A DNA stretch of 64,000 bases from Ginglymostoma cirratum (Eukaryota): assembly GCA_024137785.1 (NCBI GenBank), contig JAHRHZ010000084.1:7406093-7470092 (forward strand), read 5' to 3'. Shown here in pieces: positions 1 through 64,000 of the stretch (positions within the stretch are counted from its first letter, which is position 1; each line of letters begins with the position of its first letter). The notes beneath the pieces are model-generated. The model made no database searches. It was not told the origin of the DNA and was given only the letters and a program-made list of their open reading frames with translations. The position numbers and the translations under genes are program-made.

Positions 1-8
1 TGTTATAG

Positions 9-305
9 CTCGGCCAACTCTCCTGAAAATCATGCCCGCAGAAGGGATTTCAGAGAATTATTCGAAAATCACGTGTAAAATGATGGCCTCTTATCCGGAA
101 AATTTAGGAATCTCCTGGCTAAGAGATGTTCCACAAATTCTGGCCGGAATAGAAACTGTGAAAAACTAGACCGTGGATGGACTTTGTGAGGTTACTAGTT
201 CTTTGGAAGAAGCACAGCTTGTGCAAAGCGGTGTAGTTTATACCTGCCAGGTATCTCATGCCTGCCTTTAGGTGCCTGTAAGCGAAAGCTACACCCTCAT
301 TCGAG
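9..305 (+). pseudogene. C1-set exon of an upstream paralog with two in-frame TAG stops
   Basis: TATAG| acceptor and GAG|GTAAG donor. Translation RPTLLKIM...KITCKMMASYPENLGISW...KN*TVDGLCEVTSSLEEAQLVQSGVVYTCQVSHACL*VPVSESYTLIR aligns with the 38770 exon. Stops at 167-169 and 269-271. Confidence 0.9.
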
Positions 306-979
306 GTAAGATTGAAAATATTCCCAATACGAAAATGGAGGGAGTGGTGGGGGAAAGCTATTAAATGCGTATGCTTAATTAATTGAACAGCTGTTCAAAC
401 TCGAGGGTACCATGTGAATGTGACCAGTGTCCTTTCTCAATGCAGCAGAAATGGAAAGACCATAAAATATTCTAAGGTCACTTGCAGGTGCAGGAAGACG
501 AATAGTTCCCTGAAATTATCTGAAATGGGAAGTTGATGCGCAAACTGTTTAAAAGTTGAGAACGCAACAACTTTTCGTATGTGAAATGAACATACAAATG
601 AAATGGATCCGTTCCACCCGAGTAACTTACACAACCTGTACAGCATCTGTCAGACCTGCTGATAGTTTCCAGCAACTTCTGTTTTTATATTGCTTATCCT
701 GTTCAGCTGATCTCCGCCTACAAGATTTTCAGTTGCCTGCAACGTCCACTGGCAAAATTCCGACCTCTCTAGCTCGCGCTGCGTCTTATCTTCATTAAGA
801 CACTTCTTGAACTTCATTTCTCTCTGTCCTAAGATGACTTCATGTTCGGCTGATAATGCTCTGTGAAGTGACTTAAAATTATTATTAACCTGGTTAAAGA
901 TCTAATATAATTCAAGTTGTTCTTCTTACATATCCTAAAGGTTGCTGTCAGTGTTGTCTGGAAAGCTGGAGGACAGTGT

Positions 980-1345
980 CGTAAAGCATTTAAAAATCCT
1001 TAGAAATCTCCACAGGATAAACGAGAAAAGGATGTTTCTCCTGGCTGATGGTCTAGAACCAGAGAACACAGTTATAAGCTAAGATGCAGGTCATTAGAAC
1101 TGAGGTTACAAGGAATTTCTTTAAGCAGAGGGTGGTGAATCTTTTGAATTCTCCAGCCGAGACTGCTGAGAAAACTCAGTCACAGACAGTATAAACTACT
1201 GAGATCGACAAAGTTCCAGAGGTTAAATGATATATAGATAGCGTGAGAAAATAGCGCTGAGGAAGATCAAACATGATCTCGTTGAATGCTGGAGCATGCT
1301 CCAGGGTCCCAATATCTACCCCTATTCCCGTTGTTTATGTTCCTT
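980..1345 (+). mobile_element. CR1 3' end remnant
   Basis: tctagaaccagagaacacag...aatttctttaagcagagggtggtgaatc and a 3' UTR-like tail. Confidence 0.65.
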
Positions 1346-7664: not shown

Positions 7665-7689
7665 AAGTGGTAGGTAGTTGGAAGCTCAA

Positions 7690-9691: not shown

Positions 9692-9796
9692 GTAAAGATC
9701 TCAATTATCTGTTCATCTCTAAATGGGCAGGTACCATGCCGACAATTTTGCAGTTGATAATCATCTTGACAAGACTCGAATTAAAGGCATCATCTG
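9692..9796 (+). pseudogene. TM exon copy 1, splice acceptor lost
   Basis: GKDLNYLFISKWAGTMPTILQLIIILTRLELKASS. Acceptor CCTGTAG has become CCTTTTG; donor GTAAG is intact; Pro and Gln sit inside the helix. Confidence 0.82.
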
Positions 9797-15500: not shown

Positions 15501-16645
15501 GACGTTCTTTTTGCAAACTGATATACACATTCACAGTTATACATATCAAAACATCCAATAAAATTTAATCCAAACATCATTCATTACTTTATTTTTCAGG
15601 CTTTCTTTGCAAATCAGGTTAAATATCCTTTCATTCAATCTTCTAAAATAACAATTAACGTTTCAAATACAAAATAAGTTCAGTTCTGAAGAAGGGTGAC
15701 TGGCCGAAACGTTAACTCGCTTTTTCCCCATAGATGGTGCTGGACCTGCTGAGCTTTTTCCAACAATTTCTGCTTTTGTTTCTGATTTCCAGCATCCGCA
15801 GTTCTTTGCAGGATTTTTTGTTGCAAAATCATGTCATTTTCTTTCACATTTGGGGATCAACTTGACTGATTGAATGTCCTGTCCACCTACTTCGCCAATT
15901 CTCCTGTGCTAAACAGCAACATTTTACCCTCAAGATCGCAATGTGCCTCGATAGCGTTAGGACAACCAAAACCTCCAACTGGAATTCTATTAAACCCCGC
16001 CCCCGAAGGCAAATTAAAAGTAAAAATTGTTTTCCAACGCTTATCATTCCGCAGTGCAGAGACGTACAGCTATCAATTGTCACTCTTCAGACTCCAAAGT
16101 TAACTTCACTTATTGGCATTTTTAAAATATTTTTAAATATGTTTCTCTATTAAAGGTTAGATGCGCAGTTATGACCACCGTACATCATTGCTTTGCAATA
16201 AATCATCGAAGTGGCGTAAGAAGACAATCCACAACTTATCACTTGAAAGTAATGACACTCATCACTTATCAAGTTATAAGTGAGGCAAGACATGGTATAC
16301 ATTTCCGTCAGGTTACATCTGCAGACAGAAACTAATTTGCAAGGAAATACCGACCTTTTCTGGTCAGTTTGCTTTAGGGAAATAAACAGGCCATACAATA
16401 TTTCATGTTGAAATAAAAGTGAAAGGAAATTTTTGAATTTATTACTTGACAGAAAAATTCCAACTGCCTTGATATTGGGCTAATGTTTCGTTACAGAAAA
16501 TTATATTCATATCATGTCTTTCACACTTATTGGACTTCCCAAACTAGTTTACAGTCAACTTCGAAAGTGTAATCATAGCTGTGATGTAGAAGACGCCGCA
16601 GCCAATTCGCGCGCACTGCAAACTTCCCGAAATAGCAATACGATA

Positions 16646-17589: not shown

Positions 17590-18000
17590 ACGAAGTCAGA
17601 AACCATAGGACACCAGGTTATAGTACAACAGGTTTATTTGAAAACATAAGTTCTCTGAGCCTCACTCCTTCTTCAGGTGTCAGTGAGACAGGTAGTATCA
17701 GATGTAGAATTTATAAGTAAAAGATCAAAGTGTCACACCTTTGATGAGGATGCATTACACAAATCTAAGATGCTAATTCTTTAATCAGCTAGAAGGTTTC
17801 AATTGATTAATATGCAAATGTGAATCCCTGAATTCATTTCAAGTCAGTCCTGAGAGTACTAAAGGTTGTATCAATGTAAAGAAGAGGTAATATATTACGT
17901 CAGACAATGCATGGTAGGTGTGAGGCCTTGATTAGAATCTGTATGTGTTATGGTTTGGAGTCAGGCTGGTTTTATTTCTAAAGTTGGAATTTATAAAATT
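17590..18000 (-). mobile_element. Penelope-like terminal fragment at the duplication junction
   Basis: caccaggttatagtacaacaggtttatttg...ctccttcttcaggtg, with a decayed hammerhead-like motif on the minus strand. Confidence 0.5.
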
Positions 18001-18002
18001 CC

Positions 18003-18105
18003 AATTATATAATATTATATTATAATATTTTATAATATATTATATTTTATATAATTTTATAATTATATTATAATTTTTATATTTTGTTATAATAAAATTA
18101 TAAAA
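18003..18105. repeat. AT-only low-complexity (TTATA/TAATA)n tract
   Basis: Directly visible. Confidence 0.9.
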
Positions 18106-18346: not shown

Positions 18347-18480
18347 GTAAAGATCTCAATTATCTGCCGATTTCTAGATGGGCAGTCGGCATGCTGGCAA
18401 TCTTATTATTGATAATCATTTTGACAAGACTCGAGTTAAAGGTATCAGGTGCTAAGAACGTTTGCCATTTTGCTGAGTAA
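18347..18480 (+). pseudogene. Orphan TM exon copy 2, donor mutated, reads through to a stop
   Basis: Acceptor CCTGTAG intact. GKDLNYLPISRWAVGMLAILLLIIILTRLELKVSG, then GTAAG has become CTAAG at 18452 and the frame continues AKNVCHFAE* to 18480. No V or C1 exon found between 9.8 and 18.3 kb. Confidence 0.75.
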
Positions 18481-36241: not shown

Positions 36242-39200
36242 GTACATTTAGTTACTGTATGCTCCTATATTAAAATCCGTTATATCCTATTTTACAAGAT
36301 AGCGCAATGGTTCTGCTTTGTATAATTAAACATTGTGCTGCTCCACTTCGATTGCTATAACTTTCAATGGCTCTTGCATTTTACTTCGTGAAGTTCTTTT
36401 CCTGGTATATTCTTGCTAAGCAGGGGACTGAAAGTTTGTCAGCATAAGAGAAGGCGGATTTGTAGCTACAATTAGAACAGCCATTAATGAATAGCCGAGT
36501 AGGTGCGAAGGGCAGAATGGCCTATTCTTTCTCCGTGTGGTGTACGTTGGTTTGCAGATATTATCATCGCTCTTCTTTCTTTTCTGATAGCCGCTGAAGC
36601 AACTTCGGGTAAAGTGAAACAGTTCCCTAAATTTTTGAGCGTTAACAGAGGTGAGAATGTTTCCATCTTCTGCACGTTTCCTATCTTTGAAGAAACTCCT
36701 GATGTTTATTGGCGGAGACGGGGTGAGGTGTCGGTTCTGGAGGCAGACAGCAGAAAGCGATTCAACGCAAAAAGGGGAACAAGTTCTTTCTCAGTCCTAA
36801 ACGCTAGTGTTGCTGATGCCGGAGTGTATTTCTGTGAAGTTAAGCACCAGCGAAGGTCGATTGGAGATGGGGGTGGCACACAACTGACTGTTTATGGTAA
36901 GGATCATTGTACCGGACAGGCTGCTTCTCAGTTTTATTAGATACTTGCAAAGTTTTTATATCGCGGGACGAAGATTCTTCGAATTGCTTTTACGTGGGTT
37001 TGTACTTTCTTTGTCACTGAACTCGTGTTAAATAGCAATTGATTCACTCTCGCAATTTGAACACTTATGTCTGAGACCAATTTCACTCGCTTGCTCTCCT
37101 GATATTTGAAAGGGTTCTACTTCCAAAGAGTTTTATTTTTGTCCAGTTGCAACTATTATCAAACCAAGATACCGAAATAAAATAAAAGTTTAAATTTAGG
37201 TTTGAAATGAATCAATGTGCTACGAGGACAAAGTCCCTTCTCGCCAATTTAACGGGGCCGATGTGCGACAGTGGGAACAATTCTAACATCTCCTGGGTCA
37301 TATCTTTTGCCCTCCTTTATTAACTCAAATCCAGGGCTAAGGAATGATAGCATTCTGATTCTTGACTACGCACTTAATGCAGTTCTGTTGGCCATAAAAT
37401 CTAATGAATCTTGCAAATTAATAATGACTTTAACTTATATTTGGAAAATTTCTGAAAAGTATGCTCGGAAAGAAAACATCGAAATTGTTCTCAAGAGTTT
37501 CACAAAAAATGGAAAGTTAACAAGGCCCCATATATTAGGTTACATGACGCCTATACACTGATTCGCATCTGTTAGATATAAAAATAGGGCTGATAAAAGC
37601 AGAGGGGAAAATGAGCCCAGTAGACAGAATGAACTTCGAGAAGTTCAAAAACTCTGGAATTATATAATGCCTCAGAGTTAGAATTTTCCATGTTGGATTC
37701 CGCATCTGTGCAGTTGTTATGAACTTCACACTAATCCGTAATCCATAAAAGCTACGGAGGAGGTGATGGCCTCGTGGTATTATGGCTAGTGTATTAAACC
37801 AGAGACCCCGAAAACATTTGGGTGACACATGTTCAAATCCTGCCACTGCAGGCCACCCCTGCAATAAACCTCTGGCATTAAGAATCAACTGTTAATTTTT
37901 GTGAAAATTCCACCTGTTTCACAAATTTTTTTAGAGCAGGAAACTGCCATCCTTTCCTGGTCTGACCTACATGTGACTCCAGCCCCACAGCAATGTGGTT
38001 GACTCTTAACCGCCCTCTGGACAATTAGTGATGGGCAATAAATACTGCCTGGCCAGCGACGCCCTCGCCCCGTGAATGAGTAAAGAAAAGGATAGAACCA
38101 GAGAAGCTGTTCAAATTAGTGGAGAACAAACACAGGATCCATATTTCAGATAATTTGCAAAATAGTCAGGTGCCACGGTCGGAAAATCTTTCAAGAAAGT
38201 TGTTCAAGGATCTGGAGTGCACTGCGGAAGAATCCAGTGCAATTATGGCGTTCAAAAGGCAAAGTTATGAAAGGGATGAAACCAACAACGACAATTGCAG
38301 TGGATCTGGCAGCATTTGTGGAGAGAAATGGAGTTAAGGTTTCCAGTTTGGTCTGACTCTTCTTCAGGAGAAGTTTTGAACATTGTACGAGACAAAATAT
38401 TTCGTACCGCAAACCATCATGTATGCGGTATGGGGATAGGGAATTCAGTGACAGACTGGCGTGTACTGTTTCCGATAGGTTTGCTCAGGAATCCAATTGC
38501 TGCTAACCCCAGTCCTTCTCCAGGATCTCATTCAGAACATTGCCCCTGCCTCCCTCAAGTAACCAATCCTGGGAGATCCAACATCTTTATTAATCATTTC
38601 ACATATTCCTACTATTTTGTTGTCGGGCTGGAACACTTCAACGTTTAAAATTAAACGATAAAGAGCGTAAGTATTGTCACTGTATGAATGTAACAGCGTC
38701 ACGGGTGCAGTCAAATGAGGATGTGCTCATTTAAATTTAAACAAAACAGAAACTTTTTTTTCCTTCAAGTGTCGCCGTTGCCACTGAAACTCGTTCAAGT
38801 TGAAGGGGTTTCTGCGGCTTCTCTGAAACTCGTGTGCAAAACTGCTGCCTGTTACCCGGAGCCTGTCCGTATCTCCTGGCGAAGAGATGCTGCCGAAAAT
38901 TTGACCGGAATACAAACGGTAATAAAGACTGCGGATGGACTGTATGAGGTTTCCAGCTCTCTGGAAGAAGCGCAGCCTGTGCGGAGCGGAGTGATTTATA
39001 CCTGTCTGGTGTCACATGTTTCCCTTCCTGTACCCGTCAGTGTCAACTTCACCGTCAATCCAGGTAAGACTGGAAACACTGGCAGCAGTGAGAGGGACCA
39101 GCGCTCCAAGCAGCGTTTAGAGAGTAGACATGCAGCTGAGCAGCTGTCCAAACCAGAGGGAGGAGTTGAGCGTGGAAAGTATTAACTCGCAAAGCGCCAC

Positions 39201-42200: not shown

Positions 42201-45200
42201 AACGTGTAAGAGTTTTTCCTCTTAAGAAACAACCTAAAGGGAAGATTCCTGAGTCTCTATGGAATTGTTGCCTTCATATATTTTATTATGGGTTAGGGGC
42301 TGGTTCGTCATTTCATACACATTATAATTCTTGTACACACGCTAACCATTGAAATAATAGGGATCAATTTCTATTGACATTTATTGAATGTTATCGTCCT
42401 GGGATACTGCTTTGCAGACCACCCTCCTGTATCTGATCCACGATTCTCTCTGTTTAAATCTCGCTGTATTCTGCAGTTCTTACTCAAATATTATTGATCC
42501 TGTAGGTGAAGATCTCAATTATCTGCTGATCTCTAGATGGGCAGGTGGCATGCTGGCAATCTTACTATTGGTAATCATTTTGACAAGACTCGAATTAAAG
42601 GCATCAGCTGGTAAGAACTTTTGCTGCTTTGCTGAATATTTTTATTTTCCAAGACACAATCATACTTGTTGGAGACATAAAGAGCAGAAGAAAGTGATTA
42701 ACTATAGAGGAATAGTGAGCACTTTCCGACATCTTTAAATACTGAAATTGATATCACAAGTAGTTATGTGATTAGCAATTCAACATGACAATATAAACCG
42801 GATTTATTTCAAACCCTCGTTTGACTGTTTACTCGAATCATACACAACCCTCCAGTTCTAAAACTGGCAGTGTAACTGTATTCATTTTAAAGTGATATCA
42901 GAGTAGCCAACTGGAATAACTGCACAGAGGCTGGCATCCCGTTACAGAGTCACCCTTTATTTACATGTGCACCGTAGACTAGCTGTGGCCATCCAGCTCA
43001 GAGACAGTCCCTGAAGTGAGGAGATCCTGAATCCCTTGTTTTTTTTAAACTTTTATAGGTGTGCAAATAACATTATTTACATACCACCACCAGGAAAAAC
43101 ACCAATGTGACGAAAGCATCAAGATCAAGCAGAGCCCTGAGGGGCAATACCTGCATGAGAGAAAAAATAAGTGACGGTGGGAGTAGGAATCAAATCAAAA
43201 TACAGCTTGTGAGGGGAAATAAGGCACTGCACAGTCCGCGGTGCCCACTTCTCCCGAAAGGCATCAAGAGCGCCGGTGCGCATCACGTACTCCTTCACCA
43301 GGATCACCCAGGCGCGGACGTAGCCACAGAACTGGGGCAGGCATTCGGACATAACGACCACCTCCAAGTCCCGCTGGCTGGACCTATTAATGTCCAGCTT
43401 CGCCAGGCCCAGGAGCAAACCCACGAAAATTTCCTTTGGCCGGCTTCGCCCCCCTCCGCAACGGATGCCCAAAGATCAGGAACGTGGGGCGGAAGTGCAG
43501 CCCAAAAACACAAAAGGAGGTCTTTCAGGTAATTCAAAAGGGCGTGGAAGCGCCCCCACCCAATATATACACGATCCACCGGCTCCACAGACAGTTGGTC
43601 CGGGTGTCCATGAACCAAAATAATCTGCGTTTACACGGGACCGCTGCATGCAACCCCTCCATCACCGATCCCCGAGGGAAAGGGGAAGGACTCCTGCGTA
43701 GAGGGCCTTCCACTGGGGATCCCCGCCGCCTGGTGACAAATGAGCGTTGCAAGGCGTTTCGAGGTATGGGATGAAGGAGAAGAGGTGGATGGTGTGCATC
43801 AGCAGTCTGTGCATGGTTTGCCGTTTCACATCTTCTAAAGATACAAATGTGAAATTCCGGAGATGGCTCAAGTTGTGGGACACAGGCTCCCCGGGGAGGT
43901 ACGGGATTCTGGGTCCAGTCTGAAATTCCATCTGAGGAGGGGTACGCACAGACGGGATCCCACCGCACACTTGAGCGTCCACCAGTTGGTGCACAACATA
44001 AGAGTCCGAGCACCGCCGTTTTAAGGCATTGAATGACGACTGTGAATCGGACGTCTACCACAGCTCTGCATGCCAATTCCTGTGGCAGCGTCCAGCCCAG
44101 ATCCCCGCCACCCAGCACATCCCCGACTCTTGTCACTCCCGCAGCCACGGCCCTCCCCTCCAACAGCCAATCGAACTGGCGACGACGGAGGTGCTAATTC
44201 CTGAGCAGTGGCACACCTGCCGGTGGTAGGCGCGATGTGACTCAACCATGTTCCAGACAGTGTTCAGGTCATAAGACCAGACATAGGAGCAGAAACTGCC
44301 CATTCAGCCCATTGAGTCTACTCCGCCATTCAATCATGGCTGATAAGTTTCTCAACCCCATTCACCCGCTGTCTCCCCGTAACCCTTGATCCCCTTAACA
44401 ACCAAGCACCTGTCTATCTCCACATAAATTTACTCAATGACCTGGCATCCACACCCTTCTGTGGCAGTGATTTCCATGGATTCACCATCCTCTGACTAAA
44501 GAAGTTTCTCCTTATCTCTTGATTTAAAATGTCTTTACTTTTAGGCTGTGCCATTAGGTCCTAGTCTCTCCTACCAATGGAAACATTTTCCCAACATTCA
44601 TTCACTGTTCTGTAATTTTAACTTAGATCCCCCCTCATCCTTCTAAACTCCATCGAGTATAGACCCAGAGTCCTCAAACGCTCCTCATATGTTAAGTTTT
44701 TCATTCCTGCCACCATTCTCACGAACCTCCTCTGAACCTGTTCCAGGGCTAGTACATCTTTCCTGAGATATGGGACCCAAATCTGTGAGTAATACTCTAA
44801 ATGTGGCCTGGCCAGAGCCTTATACAGCCTCAGAAGTACATCCCTGCTTTTATATTCAAATCCTCTCAAAATATATGCCGAAGTTCTGTTTGACTTCCTA
44901 ACTACTGACTCAACCAGCAAGTTTACCTCGAGAGAATCCTGGAGAAGAACTCTCAACTCTCCTTGCACTTCAGACTTGTGAATTTTCTCCCCATTTAGAA
45001 AATATTCCATTCATCTCTTCTTACCAAAGTGCATGGGCTCACAATTTCCCACATTGTACTCTATCTGCCACTTGTTTGCCCATTCTCCTAACCTGTCCAA
45101 ATCTTTCTGCAACCTCCCTGCCACCCCAACACTACGTGTCTCTTTACCTAACTTTGTGTCGTCTGCAAACTTAGCCAGAATGCCCTCAGTTCCTTCATAT

Positions 45201-48200: not shown

Positions 48201-50976
48201 ATCTATACTGGGAACAAGTACCTTGCACCTGGTGGACAAGGTCAAGAGCTGAGAATCCTCTGTTCCTGAATGCACAATCCCTCTACCTGCCTCACTTGCA
48301 GTCATACCCTGCTAACCTTGGCCACTGACCAAATTTGAAGCACTTAATCTGCCAGGTGTGACTGCCTCCTGAAACATAGCGTCCAGGTACTTCTCCCCCT
48401 CCCGGATATGCCACAGTATTTGAAGCTCAGATTCCAGCTCATCAACGCTGAGCTGAAGTTCCTCGAGCAGACAACATTTGTTGCAGATGAGGTCACCATT
48501 GTTCACAATGGGATCAGCCAGCTCCCACATCATACAGCGACAACACATCAGCCATTTCCAGTTGGTTAATTACTTCATTGAATTAATTAAATTGATTGAT
48601 ACTTCTTGGCTGTGTTCTTTCGCAAATTTAATGCAAATTTGGGTTCTGGTAAAAGACATGCAGCATCCTGAGAGCGACATCCAAACTGTCACAGTTGATA
48701 AATAGGAGCTAGGTGTTGTAGTTGAGGTTACACACCCAGCAGAAAAAATACGTTGCCAGGGCACAACCCCTAGGAGGAGGCTCAATACAAAGGTATTGCT
48801 GTAAGGTCTGAAGGCAAAAAATCACCATCTGCGTGTGGATACACACCAGTGACTGACTGCCCTGCTCAGTAGGCAGATTCAGAACCTGTGCTGCAACCCA
48901 GTGCATCTTTTTGTCCTAGGAGAAGTGGACCAACGTTCTCTGGATTTCAGCAACAAAACCAGGAGGATGGACCAAAGGGACAAGATAGTACCACAACGTG
49001 GAGGCCACCAGCTGGCTTATGACGAGCACTCGACTCCTAAAGACAGCACTCCAAGCAGCCCTGTCCAGAGGCCTAGGCAAGGTGAGAATTTGACCTTCAG
49101 CTCCTGCTAATTCGCCAGCCAGGATTCCACGGCCCAGCTAAGGTGGACCCCCAGATAGAGGAAATGGATGGTGCTCCAGCTGAACCCCCGCAGATCCTCC
49201 GGCAGAGAGTCCACCCACCATGGACCAACCAGGAGTCTGGAACATTTAGCCCAGTTAATCCCGGCGGGAGACCAGCCGCTGAGTACACCGCCTGGCACTC
49301 TCTCATCCTCCCCAGTTCAAACGGGTCAGTGAAAGTGAGGAGCACATCGTCGGCGTAAACCAAAAGGACCACGCCCGTAACAGGCCCGCGCAGAACCAGT
49401 CCCAACAATCACCTCCGCAAGAGGCACAGAAAAGGCTCCACGCACAGGGAGCACAAGTGGCCGGACAAAGGGCAGAACCTGAGGCACCCCTCTCTTGAAG
49501 CGAAGGGGCGCCAACAGGGACCCTTTAACATTAACCAGATACTCTGCGGTGGTGTACAAAAGTCGGATCCATGCGATGAACTGCATCCCGAACCCGAATG
49601 CTTGCAGAGTGCCGAGTAGGCACTCATGATCGACCCTGTCAAATGCCTTCTCCTGATCCAGAGACAGGAAGGCGCTTGGTAAACAAGCTTTTCAACAAAA
49701 ATGAACCAGGTCCCAGACCAGGTGGATGTTGTCATGAATCCTCCGGACTGGGACAGTGTCCAACTGGTCCAGGTGGATCACGTGGGCCAGAACGGAAGCC
49801 AGGCGAGTAGCCAACACCATGGTGAAAATGTTGTAATCATGCTGAGGAGGGAAACCGGACGCCAGTTTTTGAGAGAAAATAGGTCGCCCTTCTTTGGCAG
49901 CAGCACCATGACTGCCCTGCAAAGGGGCAGCTGTCCGGCCTTAGTACACTCTGCCAGGACCTGCATGTAGTCGCCCCACAGGACATCCCAGAATGCCGTG
50001 AAGAACTCCACAGTCAGCCCATACAGATTCAGGGACTTGCCCCTCACACCTGTTTATATTGGTCAGCCAGGGCTCCCTTATTGGCCCAGGCTAACAATGC
50101 CAATCAAAGATCAATCAATACGATCCGCCTAGTTCCAATCACTACGCCAACCCGTTTCACCTTATTGCTAGATTTTACCTCCAAAGTAATTTCACAATGC
50201 AAACTGGACTGTCAATTCACTGTACTATAAGAGAAAGGATCTACCCTGTTGTGAATAGCGCCAAGGTAGCATTTGGGAAGATAATATACTCCACACTGAA
50301 CTGTAACTGTTGGTAATGCAGGTCACCCTTGTCGCCTGTGCACTCAGTAAATTATTCCCACAAACATTCATATTAGATAAAGCACAGGTAGTCCAAACAG
50401 TCCCTCCAGACTCTCCATCATTCAATAAAGTTATGGCTGATCACTTAGTGTTTCGAATTTCACATTTGAAAATATTCCCATTTCATTCCCCTTGTCTAGC
50501 AAGAATCTCAGTACTTCTGCTTTTAAAATATTCAACCATCATCTTCTGGAGCAGAGTTCCAAACTGGCACTATTTTCTTAGTCAAAAGAAACCCTCCTCA
50601 TCTCTGTCCATAAAGGGAAAACTCGAATTGCTAGACCGTATCAAATGGTTCTGGATACACCCACAAGAGAAAATATTCTTTCTATGTCCACCTTGTCAAA
50701 ATGGTTCAGCGTCTGACACACTACAGCCAGGTGACGCCCCACACTGCCAAAATCCAGTGGAAAGAAGCACAGTCTATATAATTATCCTCATAACACAACC
50801 CGTTCATTATTAGTGTCAATCGAGTATAACTTCTCTGACCGGCTCCAACATATTCATTTATTTGTTGTTATATTTGTGTTTTTACAATTTACAATCAATA
50901 TAATTTTCTTTTCTTTCCTTTAGATGTTAGAAGATATTCTGCGAAAGTGGATGAAGCTCAATACCTGGTAAGGTGA
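36181..50976 (+). CDS. Spliced gene model: IgSF membrane receptor, leader-VJ-C1-TM(Arg)-short tail, about 272 aa (SIRP/NKp30-like architecture; family not assigned)
   Basis: Exons 36181-36241, 36591-36896, 38770-39063, 42506-42610 and 50924-50976 are joined by GT..AG introns, all phase 1. They total 819 nt with no internal stop. The 3' end is uncertain because there is also a GTAAGG donor after 50967. Confidence 0.8.
36591..36896 (+). CDS. Ig V-set exon with a germline-encoded J-like segment (VJ domain)
   Basis: Polypyrimidine tract plus TAG acceptor at 36571-36590 and G|GTAAG donor. Protein has B-strand Cys (SIFC), C-strand Trp (VYW), DAGVYFC and GDGGGTQLTV (GxGTxLxV). Confidence 0.93.
37756..38089 (+). 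mobile_element. tRNA-derived SINE
   Basis: A-box-like TGGCCTCGTGG, B-box-like GTTCAAATC, core ctacatgtgactccag..gcaatgtggttgactcttaa and an A-rich tail. Confidence 0.8.
38770..39063 (+). CDS. Ig C1-set exon, intact
   Basis: Acceptor TTTTTTCCTTCAAG and donor CAG|GTAAG; 294 nt, phase 1-1. Motifs LVCKTAACYPEPVRISW, DGLYEVSSSL and YTCLVSHVSL match the C1-set pattern (Cx4[F]YP, W, DGxY, YxCxVxH). Confidence 0.93.
39440..42020. mobile_element. Degenerate Penelope-like element with an inverted arm (minus to about 41365, then plus)
   Basis: Minus-strand remnants such as GKLEEQQLIFR and HWGDETQT; the same GIY-YIG region recurs on the + strand at 41420-41760. Confidence 0.7.
42506..42610 (+). CDS. 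Transmembrane exon with an N-terminal Arg, intact
   Basis: CCTGTAG|...CTG|GTAAG; 105 nt, phase 1-1. Encodes GEDLNYLLISRWAGGMLAILLLVIILTRLELKASA. Conserved as an ORF in three copies in the window. Confidence 0.88.
43040..44269 (-). mobile_element. Tx1-like (L1 clade) LINE, 3' part
   Basis: AGVTRVGDVL and LLLGLAKLDINRS...FREKWAP; T-run at 43039-43046 is the poly(A) end. GC-rich relative to its surroundings. Confidence 0.8.
44270..48641 (-). mobile_element. Near full-length degenerate CR1 LINE (ORF1 zinc-finger/esterase; ORF2 APE endonuclease and RT)
   Basis: ORF1 pieces CCRCMMWE..ICNKC, VVVHIKANNIG, WDGLHL. ORF2 pieces IMGDFN, ILDLVL, GSDHN, TPLFKKG..ENYR, KFADDTKL, RPHLEY. CR1-type 3' UTR near 44270. 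Many frameshifts. Confidence 0.93.
45940..46195 (+). mobile_element. Inverted CR1 endonuclease fragment inside the CR1
   Basis: + strand GRGGGVALLVRNEIK..IESVWVEL, the reverse complement of about 47030-47260. Confidence 0.8.
48642..50047 (-). mobile_element. Tx1-like LINE, RT part, 5'-truncated
   Basis: GLTVEFFTAFW, LLPKKGDL..KNWRPVSLL and VYADDV. The reading frame is continuous with the 43040-44269 piece across the CR1 (..VFYQ|DLNTVWNM). Confidence 0.85.
50924..50976 (+). CDS. Candidate cytoplasmic exon
   Basis: Strong acceptor TTTTCTTTTCTTTCCTTTAG. Phase 1 gives DVRRYSAKVDEAQYL, then either the CTG|GTAAGG donor after 50967 or read-through to VR-stop at 50976. Confidence 0.65.
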
Positions 50977-54900: not shown

Positions 54901-57900
54901 AAAGAATGCGTGCAAACTGAACATTTTCAAGTTGGCACGCTGTCATTACTGCATGCAAGGATCTGTGCTATTTACAATCTATGTAAATGATTTTGATCAA
55001 GAGACAGAGTAACGGATCTACATTTTCTGATGATGCAAAGCTATGTGAAAAGATACATAGTCAGATGTAGGACACTTCTGTTGAATGTCGCCACAATTCG
55101 TAACAAGCTTGATGAATTGATCATGTGAACACAAAGAAATAGCTATGAAATGATAGACATGTCAGAGACGTGGTTGCAAGGTAACCACTACTGAATATTA
55201 CATGTTAAAGGGTGTGTGGCAATACATTAGGATAGCATCAAAGGAAAGGAGATGTTCTGTGAATAAATGAGTATTCAGTACAGGTATGCGATATTACTCT
55301 TGCTCAGAAATTAAATATGAAAAAACTCTGTGGGTGGAGATAAGAAACAGCAAGGAGAAGAGTTTACAAGAGGATGTAACTTATAGTCCCCCAATCAGTA
55401 GCTATGCTTAGAGAAATCAATAAATGTTATCATTGCAAAAATAAACGATTGCAATAATTGTGGATGATTTTAATCTTAATCGAGACTGGAAACAGAAAGT
55501 GAGCAGGCAAATAGAGCAAGTTGTTAAGAAGGTTAAAGGCACGCTGTATTTTATTCTGAGAGGCATGGAGCAAAAGAAATAAAGAAATTTTGCTCCATTG
55601 TGCCAAGCTTTCTCTTACCACTTTCTGGAAATTGTTTGCTTGGCTTCCAACATTTAAGGAAGGATGAAACATAAACCGAAATTGCTGGAGAAACATTTCT
55701 AAAGACGGGTCTCCGGATCCAAAATGCTAACTGTGTTCTCCATCTCCACAGATAATACTCGACCTGCTGAGCTTCTCCAGAAATTTCTATTTTTTGTTTC
55801 AGATTTCCAGCATCTGCACTTCTTTGGTTTATTTTCTAAGGCAGGATGCATTCATAGTGGAGACTGTACTCTGAATCTTAAGTAAATTTCTCCCTGAGTT
55901 AAGGTGGATGTCCAAAGATGAGAGGCTTAGTCAATTTAGCCTTTCTTCTCCAAAGTTGTAATGAATGAAATGTTATTTGACTTGAGAAGCAGCTCATAGG
56001 ATGTATTCATGACTGTTTCTAAGAACAATAATTTGTGGAACATAATTATTTAGTAAAGGTAATGTTGAGTGAGAAAAGTTGTTTGATGTTGCAATAAATG
56101 AACCACCAAGGAAAGTGATAGTAACGTAAAGGACATTCATATTTTGTTTGAAAACGAAACTCTTGAGTCCAAAACATCTGTTTAAAATTTAAATAAAAGA
56201 CAATTGCAAAAATGCAAAAACAGAATTGGCTAAGTTGAACTGGGAAGCTATCTTGAAAAGAAAGACTGTGAAAAGCATTGCTATACATTTAAACTGTCAA
56301 CAGAGATATATTCCATTCAGAACGAAAGATACTGCCTGCTATTGCTATTGAAGCATTAACCCGCTTCTTCAAATAGGTCATAATAGCATACCAACACTTT
56401 TCATACCAAGATTCAACCAGGACAGCAACACAATATCAGGAAGGAGAAGACAGAAACACTGAGACAAACTAAACCAATAAAGTAAATTTGTAGCTAAAAT
56501 CTATTTTTGATGCTGTATGTAAATGAATATTAGAATACAGAATCAAATTCACGAATTTGCTGACAAACCCCAAGTTGGAGTGGCAAACAGAAGATGACAT
56601 TAACGGATTATGGCAGGATATAGGCTAGTGAGTGGAAGGTCTAATTTAGTAAAATGGAGGTGATGAGGTGTCGAGGATGCATAAGGAAAAACAGCACAGC
56701 CTTATTGGCACCATTCTAAAGAGTGTGAAAGACCAGAGGGGCACTGATGGCACTTGTGAATTTATCTTTGAATGTGACAGGACATAATCAGAGTATAGTT
56801 TCCAAACCATATGTCATCTTGAAATTCATAAATGGAGGCCTTGAGTACCACTGTAGGGAAGTAATGAGAACCTTTGTAGATCTGATTAGGTCACCATTGT
56901 AATAATGAACCTAGTTCTGTTCAGCACAGCTGACGAAAACTGGGTCATGGAAAGGATGCATATGAGACAATTAGGAAGGTACTTGAGATCAGCGATGGTA
57001 CATTTGTGGATCCAGTTGGAAAAGCTAATTTGTTGACCTTGATAAAAGGAAATTGAGGGCATGGCATTATACAGGTCTTCAAGATTATGGCAGGTTTAGA
57101 TAAAGTAGACAAGGAAAAACTTAACTCATTAATGGAGAGCATAACATCCATTCAACACAACTTAAGATATTGGAGAAGAGATGCAGAGGAAATGCGAGGA
57201 GTCAAGGGTGATATTGGTCTGGAACATACAGCATATTAGCGTGATGGAAGCAGCGACCATGAATGAATTCAAAAGGGAATTTGACGGGCACTTGAAGAAA
57301 ATGAACTTGCAGGGCTACAGTGATCAAACAAGGGAGTGGGACTGGCTGAGTTGCCTCAAGAAAAGCCTGGTGACTTGATAGGCCATATGCTGTCTTTAGT
57401 GTCTCTAAATTGCTCTAATTTAAAGTTGTTTGTATTTATTCACTAATGCCATGTATGTAGCACTGATTAGGCCAACACTTCTTGCCCATCCTAATTGATT
57501 TGAGAAGGTGGTGGGGACTTGCCTTCTAAAACTACTGCCTCTATGTGGTTCTGGTACACCCATAATGCTATTAGGAAAGGAGTTTGATTACTTTGACCAA
57601 CAACAGTGAAGCGACAACGGTGTAATTCCAAGTCAGTTTGGACATGGTGACATCCCAGGTCATCTATTCTTCTTGTCCTACAGCATGGGAGAAATCGTCT
57701 ATTTAAGAAATACTGACAAGTTGAAAACTGATGAGATGAAATTTCATAACAGCCTTTATTTACAAGCTTGATAATATCAAGCAGTGAGTGACAATGGACT
57801 ACCAGTTGATATTAAACGTTCCTTTCACAGACTGAACAAACAGGCCGAGATGACAATTTGGCTTATGCCACTTGAAACTTGCCAATTCCAAATAAAAATC

Positions 57901-60900
57901 AGAACCTATATCGCAAGATAATTGTGCAGTATACACAGATTTAAAGCTGACAAAGAAAGAGATAAGCTGAGAATATAGAAAAGCAATCTGCAATTGTGGT
58001 TTATTTATGGATGGATGCCTAAAATATCCATTCTTATACCATAAAATGGATATCTATCACTGTTTCATTTGTTGTAGCTAACTTTGGAAAATTGACGTGG
58101 ACATTACAAGTAACTCGTGCCAGATGGGAAAGAGGGGGAAGCGTTAATTTTCAGTGTTGAGTGCAAATAGGTCCCTCACCTCACTGTGTAAGACTCTCTG
58201 CTCATTTGCTTATTCGTGACTGGAGTCTCTTCTCTTACAAGACTTACATGAATCGCATTCCAGCACATTTATTTTCAGCCTATGGGACAACTATCCCAAT
58301 ATCAGAGTTTTTCATAGGGAGGAGAGCTGGATTTTCAGGCGGAAATTGAAAAGTATCCCGCAAACCCCACGTTCAACAAAGGGCTAACCTAGAGCATCAG
58401 TACTAAAGACAAAGCTGGTATATTTGTATCCATTTTCAGCCAGAAGAGTGCAAGCTATATCGTTAACACATCTTGAAGTCCCAGCATCACAGATGCCAGT
58501 CTTTAATAAACATTATTCCGTCCATGTGATATCAACAAACAAAGGAATACTGCGAAGGCAATGGGCCCTGACAGCCATGAGCGAACTGAAGACTTTCAAT
58601 CCAGGCTAGATTTGTCACAGCCTACCTGTTCTAGTGCAACAGCACCAATGGGCGCTGAAGAAGGGCTTCGGCTGAAAACATTGACTTCCGTGTTCCCCGG
58701 ATGCTGTCTGACCCGCTGTGCTTTTCCAGCTCCACGTTTATTGACTCTAATCTCCAGCATCTGCAGCCCTTGCTGCCTCCCAGCTAAACCATTGGCATCT
58801 GACCAGAAATGTGTAAAATTGCTCACATATGTCCTGTCATCAAAAAGCAGCACATACCCTATACAGCCAAATGTCACTGTGTTGGTCTACTCTGCACCAT
58901 TGCAAAGGTTATGGAAGGGGCTGGTATTATAAAAAGGCACTTGATCAACATTAACGTCCTTACTGGGCTTCATTTTGGATTCTGCTAGGGACATTCAAGT
59001 CCGAATCTCATTTCAGATTTGGTTCCAAACAGTGATAAAAAGACCTGAACTCCAGAGGTGAGGTGAGAGTGACTGCCCTTTACATCAAGTTAACACTTGA
59101 CCAAATATAGTTTCAAGGAGCACCCACAAAATTGGAATCAATGGTATTCTGAGGGAAAAGACTCCAGGAATTCGAGTCATACCCAGCAGAAAGGATGATT
59201 ATTGTGGTTGTGGAACTCAATCAGCTCAGTCCAAGCAAAATACCTTAGGACTTCCTTCGGGTAGCATCTCACGTGGCAGGGGAGAAACGTGGTAGGGGAG
59301 AAATCCTAGTGGCGAAAAGTTTCCGTAAATATATATTCAGAATCGCTTGTTCCTTTCAGTGCCAATGCTTTTACCAAATGTCATGCCTAAAAATAATCAT
59401 ATGCCACATGCTATAATGGTATGGTTGCTCAAACCACTGTCCATATCACTTCGCAAAATATTTGTCAAGATGATGCTGATCCTCTGTTAAGGACTATTGG
59501 CCTTGTGTAATGATGTGTTCAAGACATCTTACACGGTAACCTATTCCGTACGGCATCAATGACGCCACAAGTTTTAGTTTCAAGGGTACGGTTAACACGA
59601 CGTTTTAGGATTAAGGATTAAATTAATAGAATTAATGTAAACCCTTTTAGATTGCATTTAGCGTTAGATTTGGGGGTCGATGCCTTAGGATTACCATTGC
59701 AATTTTGACGTATACCTAATTAGTTGTCTTTACTATCACAATAATATCTGCGTTGATACCTTCATAGCCACGTTGTACTGTTGCTTTTCATTTGGAAGTT
59801 TCGTAGTCTGCAGGTCGTGCTTTTTGCAAGTTGGTATACATACTCACAGCTATACATATCAAAACATCCTGTAAAATTCAAGTCCAAACCTCAATCGTTA
59901 CTTTATTTTCTAAGATATCTTTACAAATCGGGCTAAATATCCTTTCACGCAAAATTTCTGTTATAATAAACAACGTTTCAAACACAGAATAATTTCAGTT
60001 CCGAGAAGTGTCACTGGACCCGAAAGGTTAACTCGCTTTTTCTCCTCAGACGCTACCAGACCTGATGAGTTTTTTTTTCAGGCAATTTCTGCTTTTGTTT
60101 CTGATTTCCAGCATCCGCAGTTCTTTGTTTTCTTTTGATACAAAATAATGTCATTTTCCTTCATGTTTTAATCTCTTTATCAGGGAACAGACTTGATTGA
60201 GTCCATGTCCTGTTCACCTATTTCGCCAATTCTCCTGTGCAGAATAGCAAGCCTTCAGCCTGAAGATCCCAATGTGTAAGGACAACGCGAAAACTGGAAC
60301 TGGGATTCTATCAAACAGCACGCTTCAGTGGCAAATTAAAAGTTAAAATTGCTTTCGAGGGCTTATCATTCCACAGAGGAGACGCATACAACTACTAGCT
60401 GTCACTCTTCAGACTCCAAAGTCAACTTCATTTATTGGCTTTTTAAAAATATTTTAAACATGTTTATATATTAAAGGTTAGCCACGCGGTTATGACCACA
60501 ATAATCATTGTTTTGCAATGAATCAGTGAAGTTACGTTAAAAGTCAAACTACAATTTACAACTTCAAAGTAATGGCAACAGATTGCATGCTTTATGGCCG
60601 GTTACACATCTGCGACCTCTTCTGGTCAGTCTGCTTTAGCATTTGGCGAAGATATTTGAGAGATTTCCCGTTTTGGGGAAATAAAAAAAAGTCTACACGA
60701 TATTTCACTAGTGGAAAAAAGCCAACGGAAAGTTTCGAATTTATTAATTGGCAATAAAATGCTACCTGCCTTGATATCAGGCAAATGTTTCGTCGCAGAA
60801 AAATATATTCAGATCGTGCCTTTCACAGACGCTGGACTTCCCAAAGTGGTTGCGGCCTACATTTTAAGTGTAGTCACACTGTGATACAGGAGACGCCACA

Positions 60901-61064
60901 GCCAATTCGCCCGCACTGCAAACTTCCCAAATTCGCATTCTGCTAATGACCAGCTAAACCTTTACTCCTGTGTATGTGTTTGTGCATGTTTATCTGTATG
61001 TGGGTTGTGTGTGCGCGCGTATGAGAAAGAGACAGAGATGCTGACTAAATGGTAAACATTTAAG

Positions 61065-61300
61065 ACACTCGGGTTAACTCCTTATCTCGACTTCAAAGCG
61101 GTGGCATTGAATCCTTCACGTTAACATAGGAGAGTGGACAGGGACTTGGCTTAACATCCCATCGGAAAAGCAGTGTTTCCTACAGCAGGACTTGCTCAGT
61201 CATGCACTGGAATGTCAACTTAGATATCTGCTGCTCTAGTCTTGAAGTGGGCCTCTCGACAACTTTGTCCTTAGATAGTTGTGAGGGCGTTACCATCTCA
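61065..61300 (-). mobile_element. DeuSINE-like remnant (paralogs 16790-17030 and 29415-29650)
   Basis: Reverse complement ctttccgatgggatgttaagccaagtccctgtc...gtgaaggattcaatgccac resembles the Deu domain as I recall it; not database-checked. Confidence 0.5.
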
Positions 61301-64000
61301 TCAACGGCTAGGATTCAAATCAATTTAAAGAACAACGAAATGCTACGGGTGACCTGAACAAGCTAATTGGTATTATGAAAGGAGCTAGCTGTGTGGATCA
61401 TTTCCAGAGAAAATGTTTCCACTTGTGACAGAATGTAAAACAAGAGGACATAAATATGAAAAGTCGGAGTGAAATCAAAAAAAGGATTTAATATGCAAAT
61501 AAAACAGAAACAAATGAAAGGAGTTGCAAGCTAGATTAGAAGTGGCTGGTAGGAAGGAGCAAGATGCCAGAATATATCAGATTGGCTGACTAGTGTTTGT
61601 CTAAGTTGCAGGCTATAGGCGGTTGTCAGTCATGGGATACAAAATATGATCAGATCACAAAGTGGGTTGACCAACATCTGCCGAGGAAGAAAGAAATTCA
61701 CGATTCAGTCACAGCCCTCTGTCAGACGTTGAAAAGTAAGAAACTGAACTTAAATGACAACTTACATTTATATAAAAGTTTTGAAACAGGAAGATGTAGC
61801 GGTGTTTTTTTTGAGGATTAAACAAAACCAAATCCTGTCAAAGAGATGCGAACAGAAAGATAGGAATAAAAGCCATTGCTGAGGTGGATTTAAAGAAGAA
61901 TTCTCATTGAAAGGGACGAATGGAGTAGCAGAGACGTTTAGGGAGAGAATTTTGAAGCATGGAATCTAGGCAAAGGTGGCCAAGAACTCGGAGTATACAA
62001 TATTCCACAGATAGGAGAATAAGGAGCAGAATTCTTGGCTGAAAGGATACCGAAGTTGGGAATGACACGGCCAAGAGGGAATTGAAATGGGTATCAGGAT
62101 TTTAAATTTGAGCCAACAGAGCATAAAAAACATTTGTAGGTCAACCAGGATCGGGGAGATGGGTGAGCACGAATTTGAGTAGGATTGCCTACGGGCAGCG
62201 ACATTTCGGATGGAAGTCGTTTTCGGCAAATTGGATGTGGGTGGTGGTACAAGGTCGGCATTTGGTGAAAACGGTTAAAATGTGATTTGTTTGGTGCTTA
62301 ACTTTGTCAACAGTCTGTTTACATTTTTTCAGATTATTTATTTCTTTAATTTATTTCGCTAATATTGCTATTTAGAGGATTGAGGTAAGGTGAATGCAGG
62401 TAATGTTGCAGAGGTAGAAGGAAACAATCTTTCCAATTAAGAGAGTCACCCTCACAGAGAAAATAATTTGTTAATTTAATTACGCTGCTGCGCTGGGACA
62501 GAAACCCGAATTACCAGAGTGTTGCAACAGGACCTGCGTGAAAAAAGCGGGTAAGAGTGACAGGAAAATAGCTATATTGTTTGAGCGAGGAAAGACAATG
62601 GCCCCTGTACTCCTATTTAACACTTTACCATTGCGCCCTTTGTATGTACGTGTGTGTGAATATGTGCATAGCGCCAAGTCATCTGTGACAGTTGCGAGGT
62701 GAAGCGGCTGTGGCAGAGAAAGGAGTAAGCGTGCCAGTACAGGGCTGCGAATTCTATTTCTCTTTGTTACAATGTGCTCCCACTGTGGAAAAACAAGTGA
62801 ATCAGGAATTGGGCTTCTCACTCATCTGAGGTCACACTAACCTGACTGCCGTCATTCTCGATTCCAAGGGACTGCCACGGAGATGATGCTTACATCTGCG
62901 CATCTGGATGCGATGTCTGTTGGTGTACATGTGCACGAGGCTGCATGTGTCTTTGAAATCTTGTAACATAACAGTGGCTTTACCTTATTGGCTTTCTAGG
63001 GCTTTGGAAACTCTTGACTCCCGTTGTTATAGATAGAAGTCATTTAATTTGTAAGTGTGTGTGAACTTGTGAGCGCGCCGGTTTTGTGTATGCGTCTTTG
63101 TCTTTACGTGCTTTTTTTTCCAGTGCATGCTACAGTGTATGTACGTATAACTCATCCAAAGTCCAATTCGTTCATTGTTTCATGTTCGTTGAGTCACATT
63201 GCCTCCTGATTCTGCAACGTCTTACGTTTGAATTCCTCTTTAATATTTTTAACCGGTCCATTGCCTTTGGCGGCAATGTCTTGAACCGCACGTTGGAAGT
63301 TCAGCCCATACCCAAGTCTGGTTTTGTCTCCTATTTTAAAACCTGCCTCTTTCACCAAGCTTTTTTCATCAACACATCAATTTGTTCAGTCCATGATATT
63401 CCCTGCCAATCACCATTTTACTACATTGCAAGCGCCGTATGCGTACGTCAGTTTCGTTCTGCATACGTGTGGGAGTGCCTCCATTTTCATTTGCTCCCTT
63501 TCTCAACGTTATTTTTATTTGTTACGCATTCTACGTTGACGGAGAGTTCTGACCACTCAGGCATCTATTTTCGATTTATGCTTCGGATGAGCGATTATCG
63601 CTGCACAACTTTGAAAGTTTAGAACATATTTAAAGAAAGGTTCCGCACAGTTGAAGAGAATGGAAACTCTTGTGGTTAGATGTTGAGTCCGTCTCAGAGC
63701 GTGCAAAGTTACTAATTGAACGGAGCGTAATTTTTAAAAATGCATTTCAAGCCTGGCATATACCAAAACAAGCTTCTCCAAACACATTTTGCAAGTTTTA
63801 TATTTAGCAATGTCCCAGGGCGCTAACTCTGAAAAATAAATGAAATCCGAAGCAATCGTCTTTACACCACCTTTCTTTGAACGCCACATATAACTAACTT
63901 TAGACACGTGTAGCTCCTTGAGAACGTTCTATTGAGGGGGGCAGGAGAGAGGCGGTAATCTATAAATTACAGAGAGCCATCATTCTGCGTATTGACCTCT

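What the first reader, a model, noticed from the sequence alone, without database searches (positions are those of the whole stretch)
1..64000. Birth-and-death tandem array of the receptor: three TM exons, two C1 exons, probably another gene just downstream
Seen: C1 exons are 38.8 kb apart; TM exons lie at 9692, 18347 and 42506; kilobases of intronic and flanking DNA are collinear in three copies. The window end matches 32381-32420 (offset about 31.6 kb), which lies about 4 kb upstream of the intact leader. Inference: a further leader and V exon lie roughly 4 kb past the window, and the V of the first paralog lies before position 1. Copies 2 and 3 look closer to each other than to copy 1.
Basis: partly seen in the sequence, partly recalled or inferred. 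Interest (0 to 1): 0.75.

Follow-up and report, generated by a model that had tools for sequence, protein, structure and literature searches.

The report
Shark paired immune receptor gene array
This stretch of shark DNA holds one intact and two dead copies of an antibody-like cell-surface immune receptor, and the intact copy appears to have changed from an inhibitory into an activating receptor, a switch that recurs across a large shark-and-ray gene family.

Summary
The array is real. Three collinear units lie in tandem; units 2 and 3 differ at 15.8% of sites and each differs from unit 1 at about 23%. Only unit 3 is a whole gene (leader, joined V-J exon, C1, TM, probable short tail exon). Unit 1 is a pseudogene. 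Unit 2 is an orphan 3' half without leader, V or C1. The predicted gene past the window end could not be tested and does not follow from the homology cited.

The gene belongs to a family of V(J)-C1-TM receptors found only in cartilaginous fish in these searches, with ITIM-bearing and TM-arginine members. The intact copy has an inhibitory-type TM exon carrying Arg where most relatives have Gly, and its ITIM exon is frameshifted. Its ORF stayed open although neutral survival was 49 of 20,000 simulations. None of 17 relatives with that basic residue has two ITIM-like motifs, against 38 of 73 others (phylogenetically corrected p about 0.06). Best reading: an activating, FcR-gamma/CD3-zeta-type paired receptor derived from an inhibitory one. 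SIRP orthology is unresolved.

The parts
9..305 (+). Unit 1 C1 exon, pseudogene: AG/GT intact, two in-frame TAG stops
   Evidence: tree position
9692..9796 (+). Unit 1 TM exon: splice acceptor lost (TG for AG), Lys (AAA) at the switch position
15850..15945 (+). Decayed fragment (about 32 codons, two stops) of the C1 exon of a distant paralogue, carried inside unit 1
   Evidence: score 83 against a background maximum of 40 in 15 control windows
17594..18099 (.). Junction between unit 1 and unit 2: about 500 bp of non-homologous DNA with an AT-rich tandem stretch (18004-18106); leader, V and C1 of unit 2 are missing here
18347..18451 (+). Unit 2 orphan TM exon: donor lost (CT for GT), Arg (AGA) at the switch position, a Pro in the helix
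24517..24655 (+). Unit 2 decayed terminal ITIM exon, with the same 1-nt deletion as unit 3 and the first ITIM Tyr changed to Ser
   Evidence: score 57.1 against minus-strand maximum 25.1
36181..36241 (+). Unit 3 leader exon, ATG to phase-1 GT
   Evidence: matches N-termini of relatives
36591..36896 (+). Unit 3 V exon with the J-like G-x-G-T strand in the same exon (non-rearranging VJ); the only V exon in the window
   Evidence: (V-set E 6.9e-10)
38770..39063 (+). Unit 3 C1 exon, intact
   Evidence: (C1-set E 5.1e-8)
42506..42610 (+). Unit 3 TM exon, intact, inhibitory-type sequence with Arg (AGA) in the outer third of the helix
43010..50128 (-). 7.1-kb insertion of LINE-type retroelement remains in the intron after TM, unique to unit 3
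   Evidence: (RVT_1, Exo_endo_phos_2)
50924..50967 (+). Probable first cytoplasmic exon of unit 3: 44 nt, phase 1 to 0, open; peptide only weakly similar to relatives
   Evidence: the only one of 229 open 44-nt AG..GT candidates with both a strong acceptor and a strong donor, but fifth by peptide score; absent from units 1 and 2
57831..57970 (+). Unit 3 terminal ITIM exon: acceptor intact; a 1-nt deletion puts a stop just before the +3 residue of the first ITIM, and the old frame has a further stop
   Evidence: score 67.1 against 25.1
60190..60294 (+). Second decayed fragment of the distant paralogue's C1 exon, collinear with 15850-15945
   Evidence: score 73
61055..64000 (+). Spacer homologous to 29407-32420 (80%), the basis of the untested downstream-gene inference

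Best explanation
The window is part of a tandem cluster of germline-encoded, non-rearranging V(J)-C1 immune receptors of a cartilaginous fish, probably a carpet shark, evolving by birth and death. SHOWN: three collinear units, one intact gene, one pseudogene and one orphan 3' half; the family has ITIM-tailed and TM-Arg short-tailed members. INFERRED, in order: (1) a basic residue replaced the usual Gly in an inhibitory-type TM exon before units 1-3 diverged (AAA, AGA, AGA; one transition from a GGA codon would give it); (2) a 1-nt deletion broke the ITIM exon before units 2 and 3 split; (3) unit 2 lost, or never received, leader, V and C1, and unit 1 died; (4) unit 3 stayed under purifying selection and now encodes a receptor of about 284 residues with a tail of about 37 residues and no complete ITIM. 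It most likely signals by pairing its N-terminal TM arginine with the acidic TM residues of an FcR-gamma or CD3-zeta type ITAM dimer on leukocytes, as the activating counterpart of ITIM paralogues, probably against pathogen ligands that exploit the inhibitory form (the last step rests on general knowledge of paired receptors).
For: Exons and splice sites. Divergence. Orthology and lineage-specific expansions. Family range: 32 of 36 profile hits are named chondrichthyan proteins at E 3e-71 or better; the rest are 1 unnamed and 3 weak non-family hits. Hits of one species share one contig length, e.g. 8 Heterodontus proteins, some of them isoforms. Switch column in 90 relatives: Gly 42, Arg 15, Ala 12; 0 of 17 with a basic residue there (plus or minus 1 column) have two ITIM-like motifs against 38 of 73 others. 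Median tail 34 against 85 residues in the 78-row set. The ITIM exon diverged 17.3% between units 2 and 3, like introns (16.3%), while the four ectodomain and TM exons of unit 3 stayed intact in only 49 of 20,000 neutral simulations. [quoted passage not shown]
Against: No transcript or protein of this gene was seen, and the tail exon at 50924 rests on splice signals and phase rather than peptide similarity. The phylogenetically corrected test is not significant: 8 independent pairs, sign test median p 0.0625. 5 of 17 basic-TM relatives keep one loose ITIM-like motif, and 35 of 73 non-basic relatives also lack two motifs, partly because gene models are incomplete. The closest named relative of unit 1 (P0007), whose lineage should carry the basic residue under step 1, has an ITIM tail, though its model lacks the TM exon and may be chimeric. 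The closest relative of unit 3 (P0001) stops after C1, so its TM is unknown. Adaptor binding was not tested.
Confidence: 0.66

Rival explanations
1. Unit 3 is a non-signalling decoy or adhesion form (like SIRP-gamma), or a gene that has only recently begun to decay; the Arg is incidental and sits at the membrane interface.
For: Many non-basic relatives also have short tails (35 of 73 lack two motifs). The strongly hydrophobic run after the Arg is only about 16 residues. Two of three units are already dead. The exon that carries the membrane-proximal ITIM in relatives is undetectable.
Against: The Arg lies in the same alignment column as the Arg of the distinct activating-type TM exon of catshark and sevengill shark relatives. 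It is kept as a basic residue in all three units. Neutral survival of the ORF is 0.25%.
Confidence: 0.2
2. The genes are B7-family ligands (B7-H6/NCR3LG1-like V-C1 proteins) rather than signalling receptors.
For: B7-H6 is the top row of the wide fold search with the model of the nearest relative P0001 (Z 16.0, rmsd 3.5, 187 aligned, 28% identity). Several relatives carry automatic NCR3LG1-like names.
Against: That Z ties with NCAM2, Rst, Neph1, PD-L2 and butyrophilin (15.3-15.6). The family has repeated ITIM tails, up to five motifs, and TM-Arg forms, which are receptor features. The V domain's best single-domain sequence hits are TCR V-alpha and shark VNAR.
Confidence: 0.07
3. Unit 2 never was a whole gene: it is a partial duplicate of the TM-to-spacer segment of the unit 3 lineage placed upstream. 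The array then has two genes here and need not continue past the window. (This rival concerns history only and is compatible with the best explanation's mechanism.)
For: Unit 2 starts abruptly 250 bp before its TM exon after non-homologous filler. No leader, V or C1 remnant of its own was found. The region 32421-38700 has no collinear partner.
Against: A simple deletion from a whole gene explains the same junction. The spacer 30195-32420 shows unit 2-type divergence (0.15-0.21) up to the window end, as expected for a full-period tandem unit. Relatives form clusters of several genes per chromosome.
Confidence: 0.3
4. The copies are an assembly artefact (haplotypes or mis-joins).
For: One 141-base N gap lies in unit 1, and the unit 1/2 junction contains a low-complexity AT stretch where a local mis-join could have dropped part of gene 2.
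Against: Copies differ at 16-23% of sites, with independent insertions and independent inactivating changes. Units 1 and 3 each group with a different bamboo shark protein.
Confidence: 0.02

Closest known systems
SIRP family (SIRP-alpha, -beta, -gamma)
   Same: Clustered paired receptors with a joined VJ-type V domain (listed so in PMC11599192, passage) followed by C1; inhibitory ITIM, activating and non-signalling members (PMC9652883, passage). The family profile aligns to SIRP-alpha D1-D2 in one stretch at 69.0 bits. SIRP-alpha clusters are ranks 2 and 4 in the Atlas for a full-length relative.
   Different: One C1, not two (P0007 has two near-identical C1 and may be a model artefact). The activating form uses an N-terminal Arg rather than the central Lys and DAP12 of SIRP-beta (DAP12 link from the listing of PMC12975943; the Lys is recalled). 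Ig lambda and kappa light chains score as high (72.9 and 71.4 bits), and no SIRP V domain is among the 52 hits at E 1e-9 to the V profile.
UrIg / UrIg2 (non-rearranging shark Ig-like genes)
   Same: Single-exon VJ plus C1 in cartilaginous fish (PMC12227049, PMC10751288, passages); UrIg2 is the top whole-sequence PDB hit for the C1 exon.
   Different: UrIg2 has several C1 domains and an Fc-like dimer. This family has one C1, ITIM or Arg signalling and many paralogues. The V-C1 match is weaker than to light chains or SIRP-alpha (57.3 bits).
NKp30 (NCR3) and PRARP
   Same: Non-rearranging joined-VJ receptors; NKp30 has a TM Arg and uses CD3-zeta/FcR-gamma (recalled).
   Different: NKp30 has a single V and no C1 (recalled).
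LILR / KIR / Fc-alpha-RI / NKp46 paired receptors
   Same: Works like them: activating forms arise from inhibitory ones by a TM basic residue plus tail loss, and an N-terminal Arg selects Fc-gamma (PMC1440944, passages).
   Different: Their ectodomains are C2-type (recalled), not VJ-C1.
NITR of ray-finned fish
   Same: Clustered, lineage-specific paired receptors with a joined VJ domain.
   Different: The second domain of NITR is I-set (recalled); here it is C1-set. No ray-finned fish family member was found.

Membership tests
Birth-and-death tandem multigene family | Tandem paralogues of one orientation with collinear flanks | tested here: met
Birth-and-death tandem multigene family | Intact genes beside pseudogenes and fragments | tested here: met
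Birth-and-death tandem multigene family | Old paralogue lineages shared between species plus lineage-specific expansions | tested here: met
Birth-and-death tandem multigene family | Copy-number variation between individuals | not testable with these tools
   no population data
Paired immunoreceptors (activating member) | Related ectodomains with ITIM-bearing and charged-TM forms | tested here: met
Paired immunoreceptors (activating member) | Basic residue in the N-terminal TM segment and no complete ITIM | tested here: met
   (tail is predicted, not seen as RNA)
Paired immunoreceptors (activating member) | Assembly with an ITAM adaptor; leukocyte expression | not testable with these tools
   needs experiment or RNA data
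SIRP | Joined VJ-type V domain followed by C1 | tested here: met
SIRP | Two C1 domains (V-C1-C1) | tested here: not met
   one C1 exon between V and TM in unit 3; named full-length relatives are V-C1 apart from the doubtful models P0007 and P0018
SIRP | Closest sequence relationship to SIRP rather than to other V-C1 proteins | tested here: inconclusive
   69.0 bits against 72.9 and 71.4 for light chains; Atlas rank 2
SIRP | Conserved synteny with the tetrapod SIRP cluster; CD47 binding | not testable with these tools
   no flanking genes in the window, no eukaryote genome collection
UrIg | Several C1 domains forming an Fc-like dimer | tested here: not met
   one C1 then TM
Rearranging antigen receptor (Ig/TCR) | V and J on separate segments | tested here: not met
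   the V exon runs through the J-like strand to a splice donor
NKp30/NCR3 | Single V domain directly followed by TM (recalled) | tested here: not met
   a C1 exon lies between V and TM
B7-H6 / B7 family | V-C ectodomain closest to B7 members | tested here: inconclusive
   top fold row but tied within Z 1 with unrelated two-domain proteins
NITR | I-set second domain (recalled) | tested here: not met
   second domain scores as C1-set above Pfam's cut-off
PRARP | Sequence relationship and MHC linkage | not tested
   no PRARP sequence was returned by any search

The most novel reading that the evidence does not exclude
The window samples an undescribed, chondrichthyan-wide cluster of paired V(J)-C1 receptors, older than the shark-chimaera split, that fills the role of KIR/LILR/NITR/SIRP in cartilaginous fish. 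Activating members arise again and again at one TM position (at least 11 state changes on a 72-row ectodomain tree). The cluster may be the cartilaginous-fish root of the SIRP family, whose origin is described as unknown (PMC9652883), and is a living non-rearranging relative of the light-chain/TCR-type VJ-C1 gene that RAG invaded.
Probability: 0.35. Interest if true: 0.78.

Novelty: new variant of a known kind. Interest (0 to 1): 0.52.

Why it matters
A tandem array of immune genes with pseudogenes is ordinary. The content is less so. I found no description of a large paired inhibitory/activating Ig-receptor family in sharks and rays in ten searches of the open-access library, and databases name its members inconsistently (SIRP-like, tapasin-related, B7-H6-like, light-chain-like). 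If the reading holds, it supplies candidate NK or myeloid receptors for the oldest jawed vertebrates and makes the origin of SIRPs testable by synteny. It adds a multigene family to the short list of non-rearranging VJ-C1 genes. The window also preserves an inhibitory-to-activating conversion whose steps can be ordered from three copies.

Tried and rejected
Search for more V or leader exons on both strands with the family HMM and blastn: none beyond unit 3. Search for the middle cytoplasmic exons of relatives by tblastn, ungapped scans, HMM, PSSM and frameshift-tolerant alignment: nothing above minus-strand background. My first reading, TM spliced straight to the terminal exon with an immediate stop, was replaced after the 44-nt exon was found; it remains possible as an isoform. 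The conserved block at 13.9, 22.7 and 55.6 kb is a dispersed repeat, not an exon. A 111-nt candidate exon at 51953-52063 has stops and no similarity. pN/pS for C1 of unit 1 against unit 3 (0.249/0.463) and for TM pairs (0.078/0.158; 0.129/0.204) points to past purifying selection on small counts. dN/dS across V exons is impossible with one V exon. Foldseek returned only generic Fab chains at TM about 0.4; SIRP was not among the 50 rows of the wide search, which excludes nothing. Cluster-member look-up could not be made, so accession-level gene order in relatives is unchecked. Dornburg and Yoder 2022 (PMID 34981186), the review most likely to mention such genes, is not held; papers on shark NCR3, PRARP and UrIg outside the open library were not seen. 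Prokaryote, phage and plasmid collections were not used as they do not bear on a shark locus. The scaffold flanks stay unchecked.
Full report
Observation. Self-BLAST shows three collinear units on the + strand. Unit 1 runs from the window start to 17594, unit 2 from 18099 into the spacer before the leader at 36181, and unit 3 from there to 64000. C1 exons start at 9 and 38770; TM exons at 9692, 18347 and 42506. About 5.1 kb of unit 1 aligns to both other units; 11.3 kb aligns between units 2 and 3 and 8.6 kb between 1 and 3. Over 4,518 gap-free three-way columns the p-distances are 0.158 (2 vs 3), 0.230 (1 vs 2) and 0.228 (1 vs 3), and units 2 and 3 are closest in 7 of 7 segments. The window end lies in a 3-kb block matching 29407-32420 at 80%.

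Anatomy. Unit 3 has leader 36181-36241, V 36591-36896, C1 38770-39063 and TM 42506-42610, all with canonical splice sites and an open frame of 255 codons. The V exon scores as V-set and the C exon as C1-set. The V exon includes the J-like strand, so it does not rearrange. A 44-nt exon at 50924-50967 has the length and phases of the first cytoplasmic exon of relatives. It is the only one of 229 open 44-nt candidates on both strands with both strong splice signals, but its peptide ranks only fifth, so it is probable, not shown. The terminal exon at 57831 is homologous to the two-ITIM exon of relatives (67.1 against a background maximum of 25.1). A 1-nt deletion places a stop just before the +3 hydrophobic residue of the first ITIM. 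Spliced together by coordinates these exons give 284 residues. The middle tail exons of relatives were not found. Unit 1 has two stops in C1 and no TM acceptor, and its collinear blocks skip the terminal exon. Unit 2 has no leader, V or C1, no TM donor, and a terminal exon with the same 1-nt deletion as unit 3. Units 1 and 3 also carry a decayed piece of the C1 exon of a distant paralogue at 15850 and 60190 (scores 83 and 73 against at most 40 in 15 control windows).

The downstream gene. The 6.3 kb from 32421 has no collinear partner in the window, so the data show only that the duplicated unit extends past 64000. If the unit ends before the leader, unit 3 is the last copy. Divergence along the spacer stays at unit 2-type levels (0.15-0.21), which fits a full-period tandem unit but also a partial duplication. 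No eukaryote genome collection was available, so this is untested; about 55% is my estimate.

Family. The V exon's best hit is a Chiloscyllium punctatum protein at 79% (5 hits among 160 candidates). A full-length horn shark relative gave 24 hits, all named from sharks, rays or chimaera. A 56-sequence profile gave 36 hits: 32 named chondrichthyan proteins, 1 unnamed and 3 weak non-family hits; only the 7,999 best candidates were scored. The unnamed representatives library gave 68 proteins at E 1e-30, some of them long multi-Ig proteins outside the family. Proteins of one species share one contig length, which suggests one chromosome each. In the C1 tree (44 rows) unit 3 pairs with the C. punctatum protein (100/98) and unit 1 falls with both C1 domains of a C. 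plagiosum model and one unnamed protein (100/99). Horn shark, catshark, sevengill shark and ray members form their own clusters. Units 1 and 3 therefore probably diverged before the source species split from bamboo sharks, which is the birth-and-death pattern.

Signalling type. Of 184 proteins fetched, 90 had a C1 match and a hydrophobic TM segment; the rest (over 600 residues, or no C1 or TM) were dropped. At the column of the window's TM Arg these 90 show Gly 42, Arg 15, Ala 12, Val 7 and others 14. None of the 17 with a basic residue within one column has two ITIM-like motifs, against 38 of 73 others (Fisher p 4.7e-5, rows not independent). In the earlier 78-row set, 5 of 17 keep one loose motif and median tails are 34 and 85 residues. 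On a 72-row ectodomain tree the state changes at least 11 times. In 8 independent pairs the basic residue never goes with double ITIMs (mean 0 same, 5.1 opposite, 2.9 uninformative), but the sign test gives only median p 0.0625. Some changes reflect a second, distinct activating TM exon or ectodomain exchange rather than point mutation. The window's TM exon is of the inhibitory type seen in horn shark ITIM genes, with Arg for Gly; the three units read AAA, AGA, AGA. The terminal exon differs by 17.3% between units 2 and 3, like flanking DNA at 16.3%, so it has been unconstrained since that duplication. Simulated neutral decay over half that distance left the four exons intact in 49 of 20,000 runs. 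So the gene has been kept while lacking a working ITIM exon.

Mechanism. PMC1440944 (passages) states that receptors assembling with Fc-gamma carry an Arg in the N-terminal TM segment, that DAP12 partners carry a more central Lys, and that activating KIR and Ly49 arose from older inhibitory forms. By that rule unit 3 is most likely an FcR-gamma or CD3-zeta coupled activating receptor (inferred, 0.66). Rivals are a non-signalling decoy or early pseudogene (0.2), a B7-type ligand (0.07) and an artefact (0.02). Against my reading: no RNA evidence; the nearest named relative of unit 1 has an ITIM tail in a model that lacks a TM exon; and the corrected association is not significant.

Comparison with known families. 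It works like SIRP, LILR, KIR or NITR pairs. Membership in SIRP is not established: there is one C1 instead of two, the profile scores SIRP-alpha (69.0 bits) level with Ig light chains (72.9, 71.4) and above UrIg2 (57.3), and the V profile's best single-domain hits are TCR V-alpha and VNAR. An AlphaFold model of the nearest relative P0001 (mean pLDDT 89.8) is a two-domain Ig rod whose top fold matches are tied (B7-H6 Z 16.0, rmsd 3.5, 187 aligned; NCAM2 15.6). It is not UrIg, NKp30, NITR or a rearranging receptor by domain content. PRARP was not tested.

Literature. Ten searches listed no paper describing this family. I saw passages only of PMC10751288, PMC12227049, PMC6795676, PMC1440944, PMC9652883 and PMC11599192; no supplements were read, and gene tables there could list these loci. 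PMC9652883 says that SIRP clusters are known from mammals, chicken and Anolis and that their origin is unknown. Subscription papers, including PMID 34981186, were not seen, so absence from print is not shown.

Verdict. Observation confirmed, interpretation partly supported. The array as such is ordinary; the family and the recorded inhibitory-to-activating switch are the interesting part. Novelty: new variant of a known kind. Interest 0.52.

Noticed in passing
window 28531-29433 (-), with older fragments at 7665-9360 and 39620-41940: Penelope-like retroelement with a GIY-YIG domain (Pfam E 2.2e-5). Older fragments form an inverted pair in the C1-TM intron at matching places in units 1 and 3.
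   Followed up: partly
window 43010-50128 (-): 7.1-kb insertion unique to unit 3: a LINE with esterase-like, endonuclease and RT remains (44.6-47.9 kb) and a second RT remnant at 49.1-50.0 kb; possibly one element nested in another. An inverted repeat lies at 45939-46186 / 47030-47264.
   Followed up: partly
window 42915-43010, 50128-50330, 51054-51359 against 51361-51643, 51960-52262: Internal duplication in the intron after the unit 3 TM exon; the probable cytoplasmic exon lies in DNA between the duplicated pieces that units 1 and 2 lack.
   Followed up: partly
window 16646-16786: 141-base N gap; flanks are collinear with unit 3 and imply about 110 missing bases.
   Followed up: yes
window 6079-6873 against 34006-34778: Weak 59% match off the main diagonals, probably an old repeat.
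   Followed up: no
window about 13950, 15680, 19730, 21730, 22735, 26190, 26300, 28240, 32780, 55700, 58655, 60000: A dispersed 100-140 bp repeat in both orientations, SINE-like (label from recall).
   Followed up: no
proteins P0009, P0011, P0014 (Scyliorhinus canicula): Closely related C1 domains joined to two different TM exon types, one an inhibitory-type exon with Arg one column from the window's; suggests exon exchange between paired receptors.
   Followed up: partly
protein P0007 (Chiloscyllium plagiosum): Model with V-C1-C1, no TM and an ITIM tail: a SIRP-like domain count if real, more likely a chimeric or exon-skipping model.
   Followed up: no
window 38770-39063: The unit 3 C1 has an extra Cys (residue 150 of the predicted protein) where most relatives have Phe; P0001 shares it. 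It could allow a disulphide-linked dimer.
   Followed up: no
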